Source of the DNA: Flavobacteriales bacterium
Lineage (GTDB): Bacteria > Bacteroidota > Bacteroidia > Flavobacteriales_F > PHOS-HE28
DNA length: 64,000 bases
Reading direction: 5' to 3'
Assembly (NCBI GenBank): GCA_024103275.1
Contig: JAGFIV010000036.1
Coordinates: 6,279-70,278 of the forward strand
In this document: piece by piece, positions 13,628-21,940 of the stretch
How positions within the stretch are numbered: the stretch's first letter is position 1
Layout of the letters: every line of letters starts with the position of its first letter
Program-made: the position numbers and the translations under genes
Notes under the pieces: generated by a model
Database searches by the model: none
Seen by the model: only the letters and a program-made list of their open reading frames with translations
What the model was told of the DNA's origin: nothing

Positions 13628-14121
13628 GGCTAACCGTTTTTTTCATGTGTGTGTTTGCTATTTCTTGTGGGGATGTTTGTCGAAATAGCGAATTGCAACA
13701 ATCATTGAAAGAAATTGCCGATTCGTACAGTAAATCTGTCATTGTGAAGGATTCAATATTGGCGGACAGATCTTCAATATTGTTGACTGTTGATGAACAT
13801 GAAGATTCCGGCGAATTGATTATGGTAAGTTATTACGAATATATATTATGCTGTCATTATCCATTTGTTAACATAAGCGGCACTCGGATATACATTGATA
13901 CTGCAAGAGTCACCCGGATATTGCCGAACATGAGAAATGAATTGCCGTCCTGTGTTAGTTGTAATTGTGACAGTGAAAAAGTGGATAAATGGCCACTGCC
14001 AACTTACGATCCAATAATATGGTATTTGATTGTAGAGAAATGTAGTTCCCATACCGGTGCTCGCTTGCGGCGAGCCGAGTTCTGCCACCCCGCTCCCGCA
14101 AGTCTTCCGGCCCAACCGTAA
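13624..14121 (+). CDS. Putative immunity protein for Rhs-CT toxin 1 (small lipoprotein)
   Basis: The ATG overlaps the toxin stop (ATGA). It carries a lipoprotein-like signal (FMCVFAISCGD), is Cys-rich and sits in an AT-rich stretch. The last ~25 codons run into a GC-rich repeat element, so the true C-terminus is uncertain. Confidence 0.55.
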   Translation: MRLTVFFMCVFAISCGDVCRNSELQQSLKEIADSYSKSVIVKDSILADRSSILLTVDEHEDSGELIMVSYYEYILCCHYPFVNISGTRIYIDTARVTRILPNMRNELPSCVSCNCDSEKVDKWPLPTYDPIIWYLIVEKCSSHTGARLRRAEFCHPAPASLPAQP

Positions 14122-14170
14122 GGTGGGTTTCTCGACCCCTAACTGGCGCGAGCTTGCAGCTCGTGCCCCC
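14054..14170. repeat. GC-rich mosaic repeat element (copy at 3' end of immunity gene 1)
   Basis: Contains gctcgcttgcggcgag and ccccgctcccgcaagtcttccggcccaaccgtaaggtg. The latter module recurs at 21755-21792. Confidence 0.6.
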
Positions 14171-14179
14171 AACAACGGT

Positions 14180-14545
14180 TCAGGCGTAGGCCTTGCGCGT
14201 GCGATAGTCACGCAGGAGCGCGGCCACGACCTTGATCACGATGCCACGTTCATCGGCGGGCAGCTGGTCCACCTCTTTGTATTGCTGGATCACTTCGGCG
14301 TGTGAAAGCGAGGCCACGGCCTTGGCATCGGTATCGCCGTTCAGGAGGTAGTCAGCGGAAACACCCAGGGCATCGGCGATCTTGGAAAGCACGCTGGCGG
14401 AGGGCTGTGCATCCTTGGTCATGTAGCGGCTCATCTGTGCCTTGGAGATCCCGGCCTTGACGGCCAGGTCGTTCTGGGTCATGCCCTTCTGCTTGCGGAG
14501 CAGGGTCAGCCGCTGGCTCATGGTTCCCTTTGCCTTCTTGCTCAT
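14180..14545 (-). CDS. XRE-family helix-turn-helix transcriptional regulator
   Basis: The HTH_3 signature is LRKQKGMTQNDLAVKAGISKAQMSRYMTKDAQPSASVLSKIADALGVSADYLL. Start taken at MSKKAKG; an alternative start is 14521. Confidence 0.75.
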   Translation of the reverse strand: MSKKAKGTMSQRLTLLRKQKGMTQNDLAVKAGISKAQMSRYMTKDAQPSASVLSKIADALGVSADYLLNGDTDAKAVASLSHAEVIQQYKEVDQLPADERGIVIKVVAALLRDYRTRKAYA

Positions 14546-14587
14546 GGGTGAAATATCCACAGCGAAAGTACCGCTTTGGCGTACGAA

Positions 14588-14690
14588 CCCCGAACCCGCG
14601 CTCGGGTGTGCCCCTGATCCCGGCGCTGGCTTGCAGCGAGTGCCCGTAGAGCTATCCGCCCCTGCCTGCGGGCAGGTCCGGCGGTCTCCT
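14588..14690. repeat. GC-rich mosaic repeat element (modules 1+2)
   Basis: cccgcgctcgggtgtgcc...atcccggcgctggcttgcagcgagtgcccgtagagctatccgcccctgcctgcgggcaggtccggcggtc. This is near-identical to the copies at 19413-19520 and 20670-20760. It contains two GC-rich hairpins. Confidence 0.7.
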
Positions 14691-14693
14691 GCC

Positions 14694-14897
14694 TCACTTG
14701 CCCTGGGCCAGTTCGAGCAGGGCGCGCAGATGGCCTTCGAGGGCTGAGCGGTGTGCCTCGTTGAGGGTGCCGGCGAGCTTGCGGGCCAGTTCCGGGAGTT
14801 CATGATCGGCCTGTGCCAGGCCCGTGAGCCGGTCCAGGGAAACGCCCAGGGCCTGCGCGATCTGCGCGGCCTTGGCCACGGAGGGGAGCACCCCAAC
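14694..14897 (-). pseudogene. Truncated XRE-regulator paralog (C-terminal two-thirds only)
   Basis: LPSVAKAAQIAQALGVSLDRLTGLAQ... aligns with PSASVLSKIADALGVSADYLLNG of the intact regulator at 14180-14545. The HTH-encoding 5' part is replaced by a repeat-element copy (14891-14950). Confidence 0.45.
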
Positions 14898-14950
14898 CCA
14901 CGCTCGGGTGTGCGCGGGCCCGGCTGATCCCGGCGCTCGCTTGCAGCGAG
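14891..14950. repeat. GC-rich mosaic repeat element (module 1)
   Basis: ccccaacccacgctcgggtgtgcgcgggcccggctgatcccggcgctcgcttgcagcgag. Confidence 0.65.
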
Positions 14951-14996
14951 GGGCACAGCAGCCTTGAATCCACCCAGATCTATACACACTTGGCGC

Positions 14997-19835: not shown

Positions 19836-19887
19836 CCTTCACCAAGGAGGATATCCCCAACCGGAACAAGGAGCTGGTGGGGTGATG
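19836..19887. repeat. Direct repeat copy 2 (duplicate of cphA 3' end) - putative attR of integrative island
   Basis: ccttcaccaaggaggatatccccaaccggaacaaggagctggtggggtgatg matches 12646-12697 at 50/52 positions. It is followed by a 28-codon remnant ORF (MWMTGYMQSIF...). Confidence 0.75.
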
Positions 19888-19915
19888 TGGATGACGGGCT
19901 ACATGCAGTCCATCT

Positions 19916-20329
19916 TCACAGCGAACGCACGAACGAGCCCGGTGTCAATACGGGGATCCGGGAGCGCTTGAAGCCGGCCGAATCCCGGGTGATGATCAGG
20001 TCGGCTTTCAGCTGGACCGCGCATTCATATTGCACGGCATCCTCCAGATCCGGGAAATCGAAGGCCAAGGCCCGGTCGATGCAGCGCTCATCCACCGGGG
20101 CGACCCGGATCAAGGTGCGCAGTTTGTCGAGTGCCCGCTTCGCTGCGGCCGGGCCATGCGACCGGCGCAACAGGAAGTTGAGCGTGGTGAAACTGAGCGC
20201 ACAAAGCCAGAGTTCCATCACGCCTTCATCGGCCGCATTGAAGATCAGTTCAGCGTCGTCGGCGAAGGGAGTCCGGTTGGCCAGGTAGTCCAGGACCACA
20301 TTGGTGTCCACCAGGGCCTTGCGCATCAC
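19916..20329 (-). CDS. vapC: PIN-domain toxin (VapC-like, type II TA)
   Basis: 137 aa. MMRKALVDTNVVLDYL, a conserved Asp at the N-terminus, and ...LIITRDSAGFK are typical of VapC. A 4-nt overlap with the upstream small gene. Confidence 0.85.
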   Translation of the reverse strand: MMRKALVDTNVVLDYLANRTPFADDAELIFNAADEGVMELWLCALSFTTLNFLLRRSHGPAAAKRALDKLRTLIRVAPVDERCIDRALAFDFPDLEDAVQYECAVQLKADLIITRDSAGFKRSRIPVLTPGSFVRSL

Positions 20330-20583
20330 CTGTACTTCTTCGCAAGATGCTCGGCGTATGCTTCCTTGTGGTCAAGGTTTGCAGGGGCTACGATGATCCC
20401 ACGCAGGCTCCGGACCTTGGCGGAGACCTTCCGCCGGTGCCTGAGTGATCGCTTCCTGTTGCTGAATGTGGCCCTGAGGAAATCCTCGAACATCCTGCTC
20501 AAGCTGGTGTCATGGTCGGCCGCATACTCCTTGGCATCCTCAATGATACCCTTGTCCAACAGCAGGGTCAACTTGGCTTTCAT
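20326..20583 (-). CDS. Putative antitoxin partner of VapC (DUF6364-like small protein)
   Basis: Start at MKAKLTLLLDKGIIEDAKEYAADHDTSLSRMFEDFLRA (86 aa). The stop overlaps the vapC start (ATGA). The upstream part of the long ORF lies in the repeat element and was excluded. Confidence 0.65.
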   Translation of the reverse strand: MKAKLTLLLDKGIIEDAKEYAADHDTSLSRMFEDFLRATFSNRKRSLRHRRKVSAKVRSLRGIIVAPANLDHKEAYAEHLAKKYR

Positions 20584-20654
20584 ACGTACAAAGTTAAACG
20601 CTTTTGTACGTATTTCGCGGCGGCCTGGCGGGATGTGGATTCCAATGGGATCGG

Positions 20655-20966
20655 GCCCCCAACACGGTGCTCGGGTGGGCGAGGGTCCGGCTGATCCCGG
20701 CGCTCGCTTGTAGCGAGTGCCCGTGGTGCTATCCGTCCCTGCCTCCGGCAGGCAGATCCGGCGGCTTGCGGTACCTTCATCAACATAAGCGAGCCCCCGC
20801 AAACTCCCCTGCCAGGGCCCGGTTACTTACCTTGCCGGAGCACTATGCCTACAGCAGCGCCCACTCCGAAAGCCCGGTCAAGCTGTTCGGCCAATGATGA
20901 ACCGATGAGAAACGGCCAGAGGCCGGAAGGAACGGACACTCGGCACAGCCGAGCGCCGGGGTGGGG
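20655..20966. repeat. GC-rich mosaic repeat element block (modules 1+2+4)
   Basis: Near-copy of 19413-19835. It ends with ggcactcggcacagccgagcgccggggtgggg, the same sequence that immediately precedes attR at 19800-19833. This marks a second, degenerate junction. Confidence 0.7.
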
Positions 20967-21181
20967 AATCTTTCCCCGGGCGGATTCTACCGAATCGAAA
21001 ATGTTTTGCTACACTTGCAAAGATGTTGTGGTTTCCGCAGGCAGGATGTTGGACAGGTGAACTGACCAGGATTTAAACATGAGATACTATGGATGATTAA
21101 TGGAATGCGCTGCTTGTAGGAATCCACATCCAGTGTAGGCCGCATTTCGTAGGACACAATAGACTAAAACAACGATAGAGC

Positions 21182-21694
21182 ATGGATACCCCTAGTAATT
21201 TGAAGATAGAGCAGGCAATGAGAAGTTGCCGGGAGGTCTTTGATGCATTTTATCGAATGGTTGCCACTGGTGGTCAAGTCAATCCTTGGATGTGGACTTC
21301 TTATCAAGAGAATAGCATTATTTTTGCGAGGGATTATATCGCCGAGTTTGATTCGGAAATTGTTGAGCTCAGGAACAGCCTCGCAGATAACTCTGATTAT
21401 ATTTTGGAAGTGAATGATATTGTCTCAATAATAACTGGAGTAGGATGTCGAAATTTTTGTAATATAACTTCTTTGTTGATGAAGTCCGATTCGCAAGGAT
21501 TTCGTAGAAATGATGATTTAGTAAATAGCGTTAGAAGCTCAATAGAGATTGGAATTAAGATGATGAATGAGTGTAAGCAATTAAAGATGACACCTGAGAA
21601 TAGGGAGAGTTTTATGGAGAATGTTAGAGTATTTGATTATTTTAGAGGAGAGTTTAAATCTCTTACAAGCAAGGGGTTATTTGGTCTTTTTTAA
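21182..21694 (+). CDS. Hypothetical protein encoded in AT-rich orphan cassette
   Basis: 170 aa ORF with strongly lower GC than its surroundings. It is flanked by repeat elements on both sides. No signal peptide and no recognised motif. Confidence 0.5.
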   Translation: MDTPSNLKIEQAMRSCREVFDAFYRMVATGGQVNPWMWTSYQENSIIFARDYIAEFDSEIVELRNSLADNSDYILEVNDIVSIITGVGCRNFCNITSLLMKSDSQGFRRNDDLVNSVRSSIEIGIKMMNECKQLKMTPENRESFMENVRVFDYFRGEFKSLTSKGLFGLF

Positions 21695-21704
21695 CAACGG
21701 ACTA

Positions 21705-21940
21705 ATCCGCGCTCGGGTGCGCGAGGGTCTAGATAATCCCGGCGCTCCCCCCGCTCCCGCAAGTCTTCCGGCCCAACCGTAAGGTGAGTTTGGCGAAAGA
21801 ACAGGCCTGGCGACTTGTGGGTCTCTGCTCTCAACGCCCCCACCCGCGCTCGGGTGGGCGGGGGGCCAGATGATCCCGGTGCTCAAGGTGACCGGTGATT
21901 CCAGCAATCTGCCGGGTACCCGCCTTGCCCACCGCTCCAG
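21705..21940. repeat. GC-rich mosaic repeat element block (modules 1+3+1)
   Basis: ccgcgctcgggtgcgcgagggtctagataatcccggcgctc, then ccccgctcccgcaagtcttccggcccaaccgtaaggtg (as at 14088-14125), then cccgcgctcgggtgggcggggggccagatgatcccggtgctc and ggtgattccagcaatctgccgggtacccg. Confidence 0.7.

What the first reader, a model, noticed from the sequence alone, without database searches (positions are those of the whole stretch)
14054..21940. Family of mosaic GC-rich hairpin repeat elements at cassette 3' ends (attC-like / rAID-like array organisation)
At least six copies of a modular repeat lie on or just past the 3' ends of the AT-rich cassette genes. Module 1 is cccgcgctcgggtgtgcgcgggtccagatgatcccggcgctcgcttgcagcgag (two GC hairpins). 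Module 2 is tgcccgtagagctatccgcccctgcctgcgggcaggtccggcggtc. Module 3 is ccccgctcccgcaagtcttccggcccaaccgtaaggtg. Module 4 is ~160 bp. They overlap the last codons of immunity genes 1 and 2, and of ORF 21182. One copy has replaced the 5' half of an XRE gene (pseudogene 14694-14897). Together with the resident tyrosine recombinase this resembles integron or recombinase-associated immunity-gene arrays, but in a high-GC, non-Bacteroidales background and with different repeats.
Basis: seen in the sequence. Interest (0 to 1): 0.7.

Follow-up and report, generated by a model that had tools for sequence, protein, structure and literature searches.

The report
REP-type hairpin repeats in toxin island
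The GC-rich hairpin repeats are real, but they most likely belong to the ordinary class of REP/BIME palindromes spread by a small REP transposase, here unusually concentrated behind toxin-immunity genes, and they are not integron-style recombination sites.

Summary
The repeats exist as described. Eight copies of module 1a lie at six sites, all on the + strand, all within 14053-21925, and none elsewhere in the 64 kb. Only three sites follow AT-rich genes. The others flank XRE genes, the recombinase gene and a vapBC pair.

The core module is a 10-bp, 3-nt-loop hairpin (GGCGCTCGCT-TGC-AGCGAGTGCC). Its stem covaries and position 4 is always a wobble pair. The same hairpin type flanks Y1/HUH transposase genes, whose homologs are annotated RayT. 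It does so in inverted pairs in two related Flavobacteriales genomes and as a clear 5' copy in a third. One of these (L032) shares the motif TGATCCCG at the hairpin foot and lies in the same cphA-rplS hot spot; a second (L112) lies beside rplS. So the best reading is a REP/BIME-like family.

The recombinase is XerD-like, not an integron integrase. It is the surviving half of a truncated two-recombinase element. The attC core motifs are absent.

The array context is real: two orphan RHS toxin tips with immunity genes at 34-42% GC. In relatives, REP-family hairpins sit at the 3' end of about 11 of 16 toxin-immunity cassettes. That enrichment is unexplained.

No RAYT gene or whole-genome census was available for the source genome.

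The parts
14053..14172 (+). Site A, on the last codons of immunity gene 1: degenerate hp2 (14053-14078), module 3 (14088-14130), hp2' variant GGCGCGAGCT-TGC-AGCTCGTGCC (14139-14172)
   Evidence: R1 38.1 bits, E 5e-7
14583..14693 (+). Site B, between the XRE gene and the XRE fragment: module 1a with a 10-nt deletion, hp2 (14616-14649), module 2 hairpin (14641-14686)
   Evidence: R1 31 bits; this copy was not in the training set
14888..14950 (+). Site C: module 1a plus hp2 cut after its 3' arm. It forms the junction between the 5'-truncated XRE gene and the sequence upstream of rec2 (a deletion scar of the element)
   Evidence: (14951-14982 is 97% identical to L016 9946-9977)
19337..19835 (+). 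Site D, on the last codons of immunity gene 2: 1a (19366-19405); 1a+hp2+module 2 (19412-19520); 1a' plus long-loop hp2 (19521-19608); module 4 (19681-19831), which ends in an inverted hp2 (19795-19828)
20655..20970 (+). Site E, beside vapB: 1a, hp2 (20693-20726), module 2, and module 4 (20816-20966) with an inverted hp2 (20930-20963). It is 76% identical to 19516-19866 as a roughly 320-nt composite
21697..21925 (+). Site F, 3 nt after the stop of ORF 21182: 1a plus the hp2 5' arm (21701-21750), module 3 with a hairpin extension (21747-21827), 1a plus a long-loop hp2 variant (21838-21922)
   Evidence: module 3 plus extension is 83-89% identical in L023; same mosaic in L109
12720..14050 (+). Cassette 1: RHS core fragment (GC 58%), Toxin-JAB1 tip (41%) and AT-rich immunity gene (37%), starting directly after the cphA stop
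17801..19335 (+). Cassette 2: RHS core fragment (17801-17921 is 90% identical to 12728-12848), a toxin tip and immunity gene 2 (34% GC, no homolog found)
14997..15986 (+). XerD-like tyrosine recombinase (rec2), the surviving half of a two-recombinase element
14694..14897 (-). 5'-truncated XRE pseudogene
19836..19890 (+). Second copy of the last 55 nt of cphA (95% identical to 12646-12700), abutting the inverted hp2 end of site D
19916..20583 (-). vapC (PIN) plus a DUF6364 antitoxin unit between sites D and E
21182..21694 (+). AT-rich ORF 3 (36% GC, no family hit) between sites E and F

Best explanation
The repeats are a lineage-specific family of REP/BIME-type elements. They are short, structured palindromes of the kind that flank, and are thought to be mobilised by, a REP-associated tyrosine transposase (RAYT, an HUH/Y1 enzyme acting on folded single-stranded DNA). 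The functional core is hairpin hp2: foot motif TGATCCCG, a 10-bp stem with an obligatory G.T wobble at position 4, and a 3-nt loop. Modules 1a, 2, 3 and 4 are accessory hairpins and spacers that travel with it in mosaic combinations, as in BIMEs. Two composites are bounded by hp2 copies in inverted orientation.

Shown: the family, its hairpin covariation, its restriction to the island within this window, and its presence as inverted flanks of RAYT genes in related genomes. This includes the same cphA-rplS hot spot in L032; L112 lies beside rplS.

Inferred from the literature: RAYT cleaves and rejoins the hairpins and so seeds new copies. Copies persist at gene 3' ends because insertions there are tolerated. 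Transcribed copies would act as 3' stem-loops.

Inferred here: as dispersed direct repeats they drive local rearrangement, such as the loss of the XRE 5' half through rec1 at site C. They may also give a 3' homology anchor for swapping toxin-immunity cassettes. The resident tyrosine recombinase is not needed for any of this.
For: (1) The hairpin architecture is conserved while the stem sequence changes. In alignment A1, 7 of 10 pairs change on both sides and position 4 is always G.U or U.G.

(2) L032 carries a 180-aa Y1_Tnp ORF whose homologs are named 'REP element-mobilizing transposase RayT' or 'REP-associated tyrosine transposase'. It is flanked by inverted GGCGCGGATC-TAC-GATCCGTGCC hairpins. 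L112 shows the same inverted flanks; in L111 only the 5' flank and a copy 2.4 kb downstream score, and the immediate 3' flank is degenerate.

(3) The L032 5' flank shares TGATCCCG at the hairpin foot with 5 window copies and L105. That octamer occurs only 55 times in 1.6 Mb counted on both strands.

(4) Covariance model R1 hits only the island in the window (7 hits with E<0.05, two strong ones outside the training set). In 1.57 Mb of loci it hits only RAYT flanks, cassette 3' ends and one cphA-downstream site.

(5) L032 places the RAYT between cphA and rplS, and L112 places it beside rplS. That is the hot spot occupied by this island.

(6) Inverted hp2 pairs bound the 320-nt composites.

(7) The mosaic (hp2', module 3, 1a, long-loop hp2) recurs in L109, where rec2 is only 48% identical, and module 1 recurs in L105.

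(8) REPtron and BIME definitions, and atypical RAYT-flanking hairpins in Bacteroidetes, are described in PMC6006769.
Against: No RAYT gene lies in the 64-kb window, and none could be assigned to the source MAG.

The canonical GT[AG]G guide is absent; the foot is YTGG or CCGG.

The copies are not dispersed in the data available. There are none in about 53 kb of flanking genome. A strict 32-mer found only this locus in the GTDB representatives and JGI metagenomes. None appear in about 250 kb around cphA in 13 related genomes, except at the hot spot.

All direct copies share one orientation. Spacers of the inverted pairs (207-315 nt) are longer than in typical REPINs. Hairpin 1a is not well maintained across copies.

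Alignment A1 was assembled from instances preselected for perfect pairing. The 100% pairing is therefore by construction; only the covariation and the wobble are informative.
Confidence: 0.6

Rival explanations
1. The repeats are cassette-boundary recombination sites (attC-like or rAID-like). The adjacent tyrosine recombinase or recombinases recognise the folded hairpins and insert or excise the units between them, building the array.
For: Six units of one or two genes are each separated by repeats in one orientation. A tyrosine recombinase lies within the array. AT-rich payloads join the repeats at or within the ORF 3' ends. In relatives, about 11 of 16 toxin-immunity pairs end in a hairpin of the family. 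Contigs L116 and L115 join units across repeats. rAID arrays are described as having integron-like intergenic repeats and an unknown mechanism.
Against: rec2 has no integron-integrase match. The element has lost rec1 and more in this window. Tandem intact elements in L110 have no hairpin between them. Loci whose rec2 is 85% identical use a different repeat sequence. No R''/R' core motifs are present. Copies lie inside a disrupted gene and flank RAYT genes far from any recombinase. The junction register differs between cassettes. Both variant contigs switch inside identical stretches of at least 36 nt, so k=31 mis-joins are possible.
Confidence: 0.1
2. The local multiplicity comes mainly from segmental duplication and serial integration, not from transposition. 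The modules would be flank or end sequences (att-like scars) carried along each time a unit was inserted at the cphA hot spot. Module 3 would be an att core flanking 14131-21748, and module 4 plus the cphA 3' end would be an arm region.
For: 55-nt cphA 3'-end copies lie at 12646-12700 and 19836-19890. Module 3 occurs as direct repeats, 38 nt of them identical, on either side of a segment that holds the recombinase. It occurs once at the equivalent site in L023. The 320-nt composite is duplicated as a block. The hot spot carries different inserts in every relative. L115 has a circle-type junction across module 3.
Against: Intact elements in relatives are flanked by RHS-core repeats, not by module 3. 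L110 shows no host-gene end duplication. This model does not explain the RAYT flanks, the stem covariation, or the copies in L105, L109 and L107 at other loci. The modules occur in different combinations and registers, not as one repeated block.
Confidence: 0.2
3. The hairpins are selected 3' RNA elements (terminators or mRNA stabilisers and insulators) for foreign AT-rich cassettes, and they work only as transcribed stem-loops.
For: All copies are co-oriented with the toxin and immunity genes. The conserved G.U is a valid RNA pair only on the + strand. Three sites start at cassette stop codons.
Against: There is no T-tract. Fold z-scores are weak for most copies (0 to -3.6). Rfam gives nothing. 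Half the sites follow no + strand gene. This reading does not explain the inverted RAYT flanks. It is compatible with the REP reading rather than an alternative origin.
Confidence: 0.1

Closest known systems
REP / BIME / REPIN elements with their RAYT (TnpA_REP) transposase, including the atypical Bacteroidetes subclasses (PMC6006769; PMC3116915)
   Same: Short imperfect palindrome (10-bp stem, 3-nt loop) with a conserved foot motif. Mosaic association with other motifs. Location at gene 3' ends. Inverted pairs. The same hairpin type flanks a single-copy Y1 transposase gene in inverted orientation (a REPtron) in related genomes.
   Different: No GT[AG]G guide. No RAYT is seen in this window. 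Copies are clustered in one island instead of dispersed. All direct copies share one orientation. Spacers between inverted pairs are long. There is a striking association with polymorphic-toxin cassettes.
rAID-1 arrays of Bacteroidales (10.1101/471110; PMC12247911)
   Same: XerD-like tyrosine recombinase, low-GC horizontally acquired interbacterial-defence genes, and repetitive intergenic sequences.
   Different: Different order (high-GC Flavobacteriales). The toxin tips are retained with the immunity genes. Gene orientation is mixed. The recombinase belongs to a distinct two-recombinase element with a PF27228 protein. The repeats belong to a RAYT-flanking hairpin family.
Integron attC sites
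   Same: Structured repeats at cassette 3' ends, in one orientation, variable in sequence but conserved in fold, with a conserved non-Watson-Crick position.
   Different: No IntI, no attI or Pc, no R''/L''-L'/R' boxes, and no co-oriented promoterless cassettes.
Orphan rhs / CDI toxin-immunity arrays (displacement by homologous recombination)
   Same: Core-fragment repeats precede each AT-rich toxin tip and immunity pair.
   Different: There is no full-length rhs gene here, since the array starts at the cphA stop codon. A conserved 3' hairpin repeat follows the immunity genes.

Membership tests
REP/BIME (RAYT-associated palindromes) | Short hairpin: fully paired basal stem of 7-20 nt and a loop of 2-5 nt | tested here: met
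   10-bp stem and 3-nt loop (5 nt in L105)
REP/BIME (RAYT-associated palindromes) | GT[AG]G guide tetranucleotide 0-2 nt 5' of the hairpin foot | tested here: not met
   The foot is CCGG, CTGG or TTGG, preceded by TGATCCCG in the window family. Atypical flanking hairpins are reported for Bacteroidetes subclass 2.6
REP/BIME (RAYT-associated palindromes) | A cognate Y1/HUH transposase gene flanked by the repeats in inverted orientation (REPtron) | tested here: inconclusive
   Met in related genomes L032 and L112; in L111 only the 5' copy is clear. No RAYT lies in the window and none is assignable to the source MAG
REP/BIME (RAYT-associated palindromes) | Many copies dispersed in extragenic regions of the genome | not testable with these tools
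   The source genome is not in the collections. Within reach there are 0 copies in about 53 kb outside the island, and only this locus in the metagenome scan
REP/BIME (RAYT-associated palindromes) | Mosaic clusters and inverted doublets | tested here: met
   Mosaic combinations occur at six sites. Inverted hp2 pairs are 19450/19795 and 20693/20930, although the spacers are 207-315 nt
Integron | IntI-type integrase | tested here: not met
   rec2 gives XerD 91 bits (cut-off 330) and no TIGR02249 hit
Integron | attC with RYYYAAC ... GTTRRRY core sites at cassette ends | tested here: not met
   The only motif pair in 13900-22100 lies inside vapB, not at a repeat
Integron | Co-oriented promoterless cassettes downstream of attI/Pc | tested here: not met
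   XRE, the XRE fragment and vapBC are on the opposite strand, and the recombinase sits mid-array
rAID-1 | 5' XerD-like recombinase more than 44% identical to BF9343_RS08045 | not testable with these tools
The top 120 homologs carry Flavobacteriales, Salibacter or metagenome names, none Bacteroidales. The paper states that close homologs are restricted to Bacteroidales
rAID-1 | At least 2 co-directional downstream genes with GC of 41% or less | tested here: inconclusive
   The CT2 (42%) and imm2 (34%) pair is co-directional but lies 1.8 kb downstream, after ORF6N and an 850-nt GC-rich region
rAID-1 | Conserved repetitive intergenic motifs | tested here: inconclusive
   Repeats are present, but the rAID motif itself was not available for comparison
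MITE | Terminal inverted repeats plus target-site duplication | tested here: inconclusive
   Inverted hp2 ends are present on the 320-nt composites. No target-site duplication was recognised by eye at the ends

The most novel reading that the evidence does not exclude
REP-type hairpins could be the 3' recombination boundary of polymorphic-toxin cassettes in high-GC Flavobacteriales. Units bounded by the RHS core on the 5' side and a hairpin on the 3' side would be captured, excised or swapped, giving an integron-like cassette system. The driver would be either single-strand HUH (RAYT) chemistry or the XRE/PF27228/rec1/rec2 element. On this reading, contigs L115 and L116 are genuine recombinants.
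Probability: 0.12. Interest if true: 0.8.

Novelty: new member of a known kind. Interest (0 to 1): 0.35.

Why it matters
If the REP reading holds, the finding is largely ordinary. It adds an atypical REP family without a GTAG guide, and its likely RAYT, to an uncultured high-GC Flavobacteriales lineage. It also warns that hairpin repeats at cassette ends next to a tyrosine recombinase need not be attC-like.

What keeps it from being trivial is the enrichment. Hairpins of this family sit at the 3' end of most toxin-immunity cassettes sampled, across genomes whose recombinases are only 48% identical, and they are otherwise rare in the DNA examined. How orphan toxin and immunity arrays are assembled is an open question; rAID biogenesis is stated to be unknown in PMC12247911. 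A conserved 3' boundary element would make that question testable.

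Tried and rejected
- Rfam at permissive threshold over 12000-23000: no match.
- Degenerate 32-mer spanning modules 1a and 1b: 0 hits in the GTDB representative genomes. JGI metagenomes returned only two contigs of this same locus.
- hp2 pattern in IMG/VR: 0 hits.
- blastn of 19340-19900 against plasmids and phages: nothing.
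- Exact look-ups of rec2 and cphA returned only the same strain and arrangement, so they gave no strain comparison.
- Homolog search with immunity gene 2, to test for C-terminal truncation: no homolog at all.
- Matching NCBI accession series to find a RAYT from the source MAG: no match.
- cphA 3' end as a general att site of the element: not reproduced in L110.
- Module 4 as a cphA-derived sequence: no similarity beyond the 55-nt end.
- Protein-coding reading of 16713-17450: rejected because ORFs are inconsistent and indels are not multiples of 3.
- Fold z-scores of single copies are mostly unimpressive in this GC-rich DNA, so they were not used as evidence.

Full report
**Observation**

The quoted modules are present and are not chance. 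The 34-mer and 25-mer patterns give 3 and 4 matches at up to 3 mismatches, against 0 in 100 shuffles. Self-BLAST and a profile HMM of module 1 find eight copies of module 1a at six sites (A 14053, B 14583, C 14888, D 19337, E 20655, F 21697). All are on the + strand, and none lie elsewhere in the 64 kb.

Only sites A, D and F follow AT-rich ORFs. B lies between an XRE gene and a truncated XRE copy. C is the junction between that truncated gene and the recombinase upstream region. E lies beside vapB. The immunity ORFs 1 and 2 read about 65-70 nt into the repeats. ORF 21182 stops just before the repeat. The XRE fragment aligns only to residues about 42-75 of XRE homologs.

**Gene context**

- 10035-12695 encodes cyanophycin synthetase, not an RHS protein.
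- Directly after its stop comes an RHS-core fragment fused to a Toxin-JAB1 tip, followed by an AT-rich presumed immunity gene (no family hit).
- A second core fragment with another tip and a presumed immunity gene lies at 17801-19335. The first hits Rhs_assc_core at 54 bits; the second scores 29.4 bits, just under the 32.5-bit cut-off.
- The payloads are 34-42% GC, against about 60% for XRE, the recombinase, ORF6N and vapBC.
- Between the two cassettes lie XRE, the XRE fragment, an XerD-like recombinase (rec2) and an ORF6N gene.
- Downstream lie a vapC/DUF6364 pair and an AT-rich ORF.

**Island limits**

In the closest genome found (L022, CphA 90% identical), cphA is followed after about 150 nt by the homolog of window 23926 onward. 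So 12700-23910 is an insertion hot spot between cphA and rplS-trmD. Twelve other relatives carry different inserts of 0.4-3.7 kb there. The last 55 nt of cphA recur at 19836-19890 (95%), abutting site D.

**The recombinase**

Homologs 84-87% identical always sit in a conserved module: XRE(-), usually a small ORF, a roughly 560-aa PF27228 protein, recombinase 1 and recombinase 2. This module is flanked by RHS or PT-TG toxin fragments and small ORFs. The same module is found down to 48% identity, once as tandem 7,159-nt copies.

The window has lost the stretch from the XRE 5' half to recombinase 1. The scar is site C, because 14951-14982 is 97% identical to the sequence upstream of rec2 in L016. 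rec2 scores 91 bits on XerD (cut-off 330) and gives no integron-integrase hit.

**Anatomy of the repeat**

The constant element is hp2, GGCGCTCGCT-TGC-AGCGAGTGCC, preceded by TGATCCCG. Variants keep the fold with different stems: CGAGC/GCTCG at 14145, and CTCGGC/GCCGAG at 19562, in L105 and in the inverted copies.

On a 14-sequence alignment, 7 of 10 pairs change on both sides and position 4 is always G.U or U.G. The covariation score is 0.655, against 0.225 in shuffles and at most 0.107 in slid controls. The instances were chosen as perfect hairpins, so the 100% pairing is by construction. The covariation and the fixed wobble are the informative results.

Module 4 ends in an inverted hp2, so the two roughly 320-nt composites (19516-19835 and 20652-20970, 76% identical) are bounded by inverted hairpins. 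Hairpin 1a is poorly maintained, and single-copy fold z-scores are mostly weak.

**Link to RAYT**

A scan for this hairpin architecture found two inverted copies in L032, 250 nt downstream of cphA. They bracket a 180-aa ORF. That ORF is Y1_Tnp (28.2 bits, cut-off 23). Its homologs are named 'REP element-mobilizing transposase RayT' or 'REP-associated tyrosine transposase'.

Two further RAYT loci were examined. In L112 the upstream hairpin is GGTTCGGATC-TGT-GATCCGGACC and the downstream inverted one is GGCGCGGATC-TGT-GATCCGTGCC, and the gene lies next to rplS-trmD, the same hot spot. L111 has a clear upstream copy and a second copy 2.4 kb downstream; its immediate 3' flank is degenerate and was not detected by R1.

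The L032 5' flank shares TGATCCCG at the hairpin foot with five window copies and L105. That octamer occurs 55 times in 1.6 Mb counted on both strands. A RAYT flanked by inverted hairpins is the REPtron arrangement described in PMC6006769, which also reports atypical flanking hairpins for Bacteroidetes RAYTs. The canonical GT[AG]G guide is absent here.

**Distribution**

Covariance model R1, run with filters off, hits the window seven times at E<0.05. All seven are in the island, and two strong hits were not in the training set. Over 1.57 Mb of fetched loci it hits only three kinds of place: RAYT flanks, the 3' ends of immunity genes in recombinase loci (L013 twice, L016, L019, L105, L109/L110), and one cphA-downstream site in L034.

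A sister repeat, CCCCGCTAGCGCGGATGTTCGCTGGTTCGGATCTGTGATCCGGACC, sits at or over the stop codon of the immunity gene in L013 (four times), L016, L019 and L102. The window's own mosaic (hp2', a module 3-like segment, 1a, long-loop hp2) follows the last immunity gene in L109. By my count from these calls, about 11 of 16 toxin-immunity cassettes carry a family member within about 50 nt of their end.

About 53 kb of window flank and about 250 kb around cphA in 13 relatives carry none outside the hot spot. The sample is biased, because loci were fetched through rec2, cphA and RAYT. The source genome was not available: the strict 32-mer found nothing in GTDB representatives and only this locus in metagenomes.

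**Test of the integron / rAID reading**

- There is no IntI.
- No RYYYAAC...GTTRRRY pairs occur at the repeats.
- Gene orientation is mixed, and the recombinase sits mid-array in a decayed element.
- Intact tandem elements have no hairpin between them.
- Loci with 85%-identical recombinases use a different repeat sequence.
- rAID-1 is defined by a recombinase more than 44% identical to BF9343_RS08045, at least 2 co-directional genes of 41% GC or less, and intergenic motifs. The first criterion could not be tested and the second is only loosely met.

**Variant contigs**

Contig L116 (SRR9016294) joins 19451-~19769 to ~20905-21786, so it lacks the cphA remnant and vapBC. Contig L115 (SRR29092738) joins ORF 3 through module 3 to 14088-14447, which is a circle-type or tandem-type junction. 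Both switches fall inside identical stretches of 36-38 nt. They may therefore be real repeat-mediated recombinants or, if the assembler used a short k (about 31, from memory of the Logan pipeline), mis-joins. I do not count them as evidence either way.

**Mechanism and verdict**

Most likely (0.6) the repeats are REP/BIME-type elements. A RAYT encoded elsewhere, or since lost from this hot spot, would recognise the folded hp2 with its foot motif on single-stranded DNA and seed copies. Copies survive at gene ends and in dispensable island DNA. As direct repeats they promote deletions (site C) and perhaps cassette exchange.

There are three rivals:

- Recombinase-dependent cassette boundaries (0.1).
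- Duplication or att scars, with module 3 as a candidate att core flanking 14131-21748 and present once in L023 (0.2).
- Purely RNA-level 3' elements (0.1), which is compatible with the REP reading rather than exclusive of it.

The unexplained residue is why this hairpin family tracks the 3' ends of toxin-immunity cassettes so closely.

**Side finding**

The 850 nt downstream of ORF6N (16620-17470) is conserved in every locus of the recombinase element. It has inconsistent ORF calls and indels that are not multiples of 3. On six sequences it shows 192 predicted pairs, 43 of them with changes on both sides, against 18.0 +/- 2.9 in shuffles and 7-13 in slid controls. Several G.U pairs are invariant on the + strand. 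Rfam gives no match. This looks like an undescribed large structured RNA of that mobile element, and it may deserve more attention than the repeats themselves.

Noticed in passing
window 16620-17470 (+); also L016 10930-11640, L102 6500-7320, L105 6880-7670, L107 10925-11640, L109 11045-11880: A roughly 850-nt GC-rich (71%) noncoding region downstream of rec2/ORF6N is conserved in all loci of the XRE/PF27228/rec1/rec2 element. On 6 sequences it has 192 predicted pairs, 93.7% of cells paired, and 43 pairs with changes on both sides (shuffles 18.0 +/- 2.9, 0 of 500; slid controls 7-13). G.U pairs are invariant on the + strand and there is no Rfam hit. It is a candidate new large structured RNA of a tyrosine-recombinase mobile element.
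   Followed up: partly
window 14180-17800; L013, L016, L019, L102, L105, L107, L109/L110: A conserved mobile module (XRE(-), usually a small ORF, a ~560-aa PF27228 protein, two adjacent tyrosine recombinases, the structured region, then a leader plus RHS-core fragment, toxin tip and immunity gene) is always embedded in polymorphic-toxin loci. It occurs once as tandem 7,159-nt units and once directly after a toxin of more than 3,300 aa. It may deliver or swap toxin tips by integrating at the RHS core. The window's copy is truncated.
   Followed up: partly
window 12646-12700 and 19836-19890: The last 55 nt of cphA, including the stop codon, are duplicated (95% identical) 7.1 kb apart. The two copies bracket cassette 1, the recombinase remnant and cassette 2. 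This could be an att-like direct repeat or the relic of a replaced cphA end.
   Followed up: partly
L115 (SRR29092738) and L116 (SRR9016294) versus window 14088-14447, 19451-19831, 20757-21791: Two public contigs join island segments differently. One lacks the cphA remnant and vapBC (switch in module 4). The other joins ORF 3 to the XRE gene through module 3 (a circle-type junction). The switch points lie in identical stretches of 36-38 nt, so assembly artefact and real recombinant cannot be told apart.
   Followed up: partly
window 12700-23910; L022-L034; L032 12902-13520; L112 1-655: The cphA-rplS/trmD interval is an insertion hot spot across this Flavobacteriales lineage, with inserts from 150 nt to 11 kb. 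In L032 it holds a RAYT gene with its flanking hairpins, and in L112 a RAYT lies directly beside rplS.
   Followed up: yes
window 21747-21827; L023 13311-13390; L109 13640-13700: Module 3 plus a ~40-nt extension forms a ~70-nt hairpin. It is conserved (83-89%) in another species at the same locus, and in degenerate form in L109. Each time it lies 130-250 nt beyond the stop of a convergent gene: a Por_Secre_tail protein in L109, a PNGase-F-like 646-aa protein in the window, and an unannotated ORF in L023.
   Followed up: partly
window 18766-19401: Immunity gene 2 (211 aa, 34% GC) has no homolog other than itself among 5.8 billion clustered proteins.
   Followed up: yes
L105 1240-1395: Two tandem ~66-nt GC-rich repeats abut a 5'-truncated HTH_3 gene and a module 1 copy. 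This is a second case of an XRE-type gene cut at its 5' end next to these repeats.
   Followed up: no
window 16260-16282; L105 6519-6541: A perfect 10-bp palindrome, GGAGGTCACA-AAC-TGTGACCTCC, lies inside the ORF6N coding sequence and is conserved in the L105/L106 homolog.
   Followed up: no
window 28960-33400 (-): A long array of ~207-nt (69-codon) repeats lies within a very large ORF on the minus strand, probably a repetitive surface or adhesin-type protein. It is unrelated to the finding.
   Followed up: no
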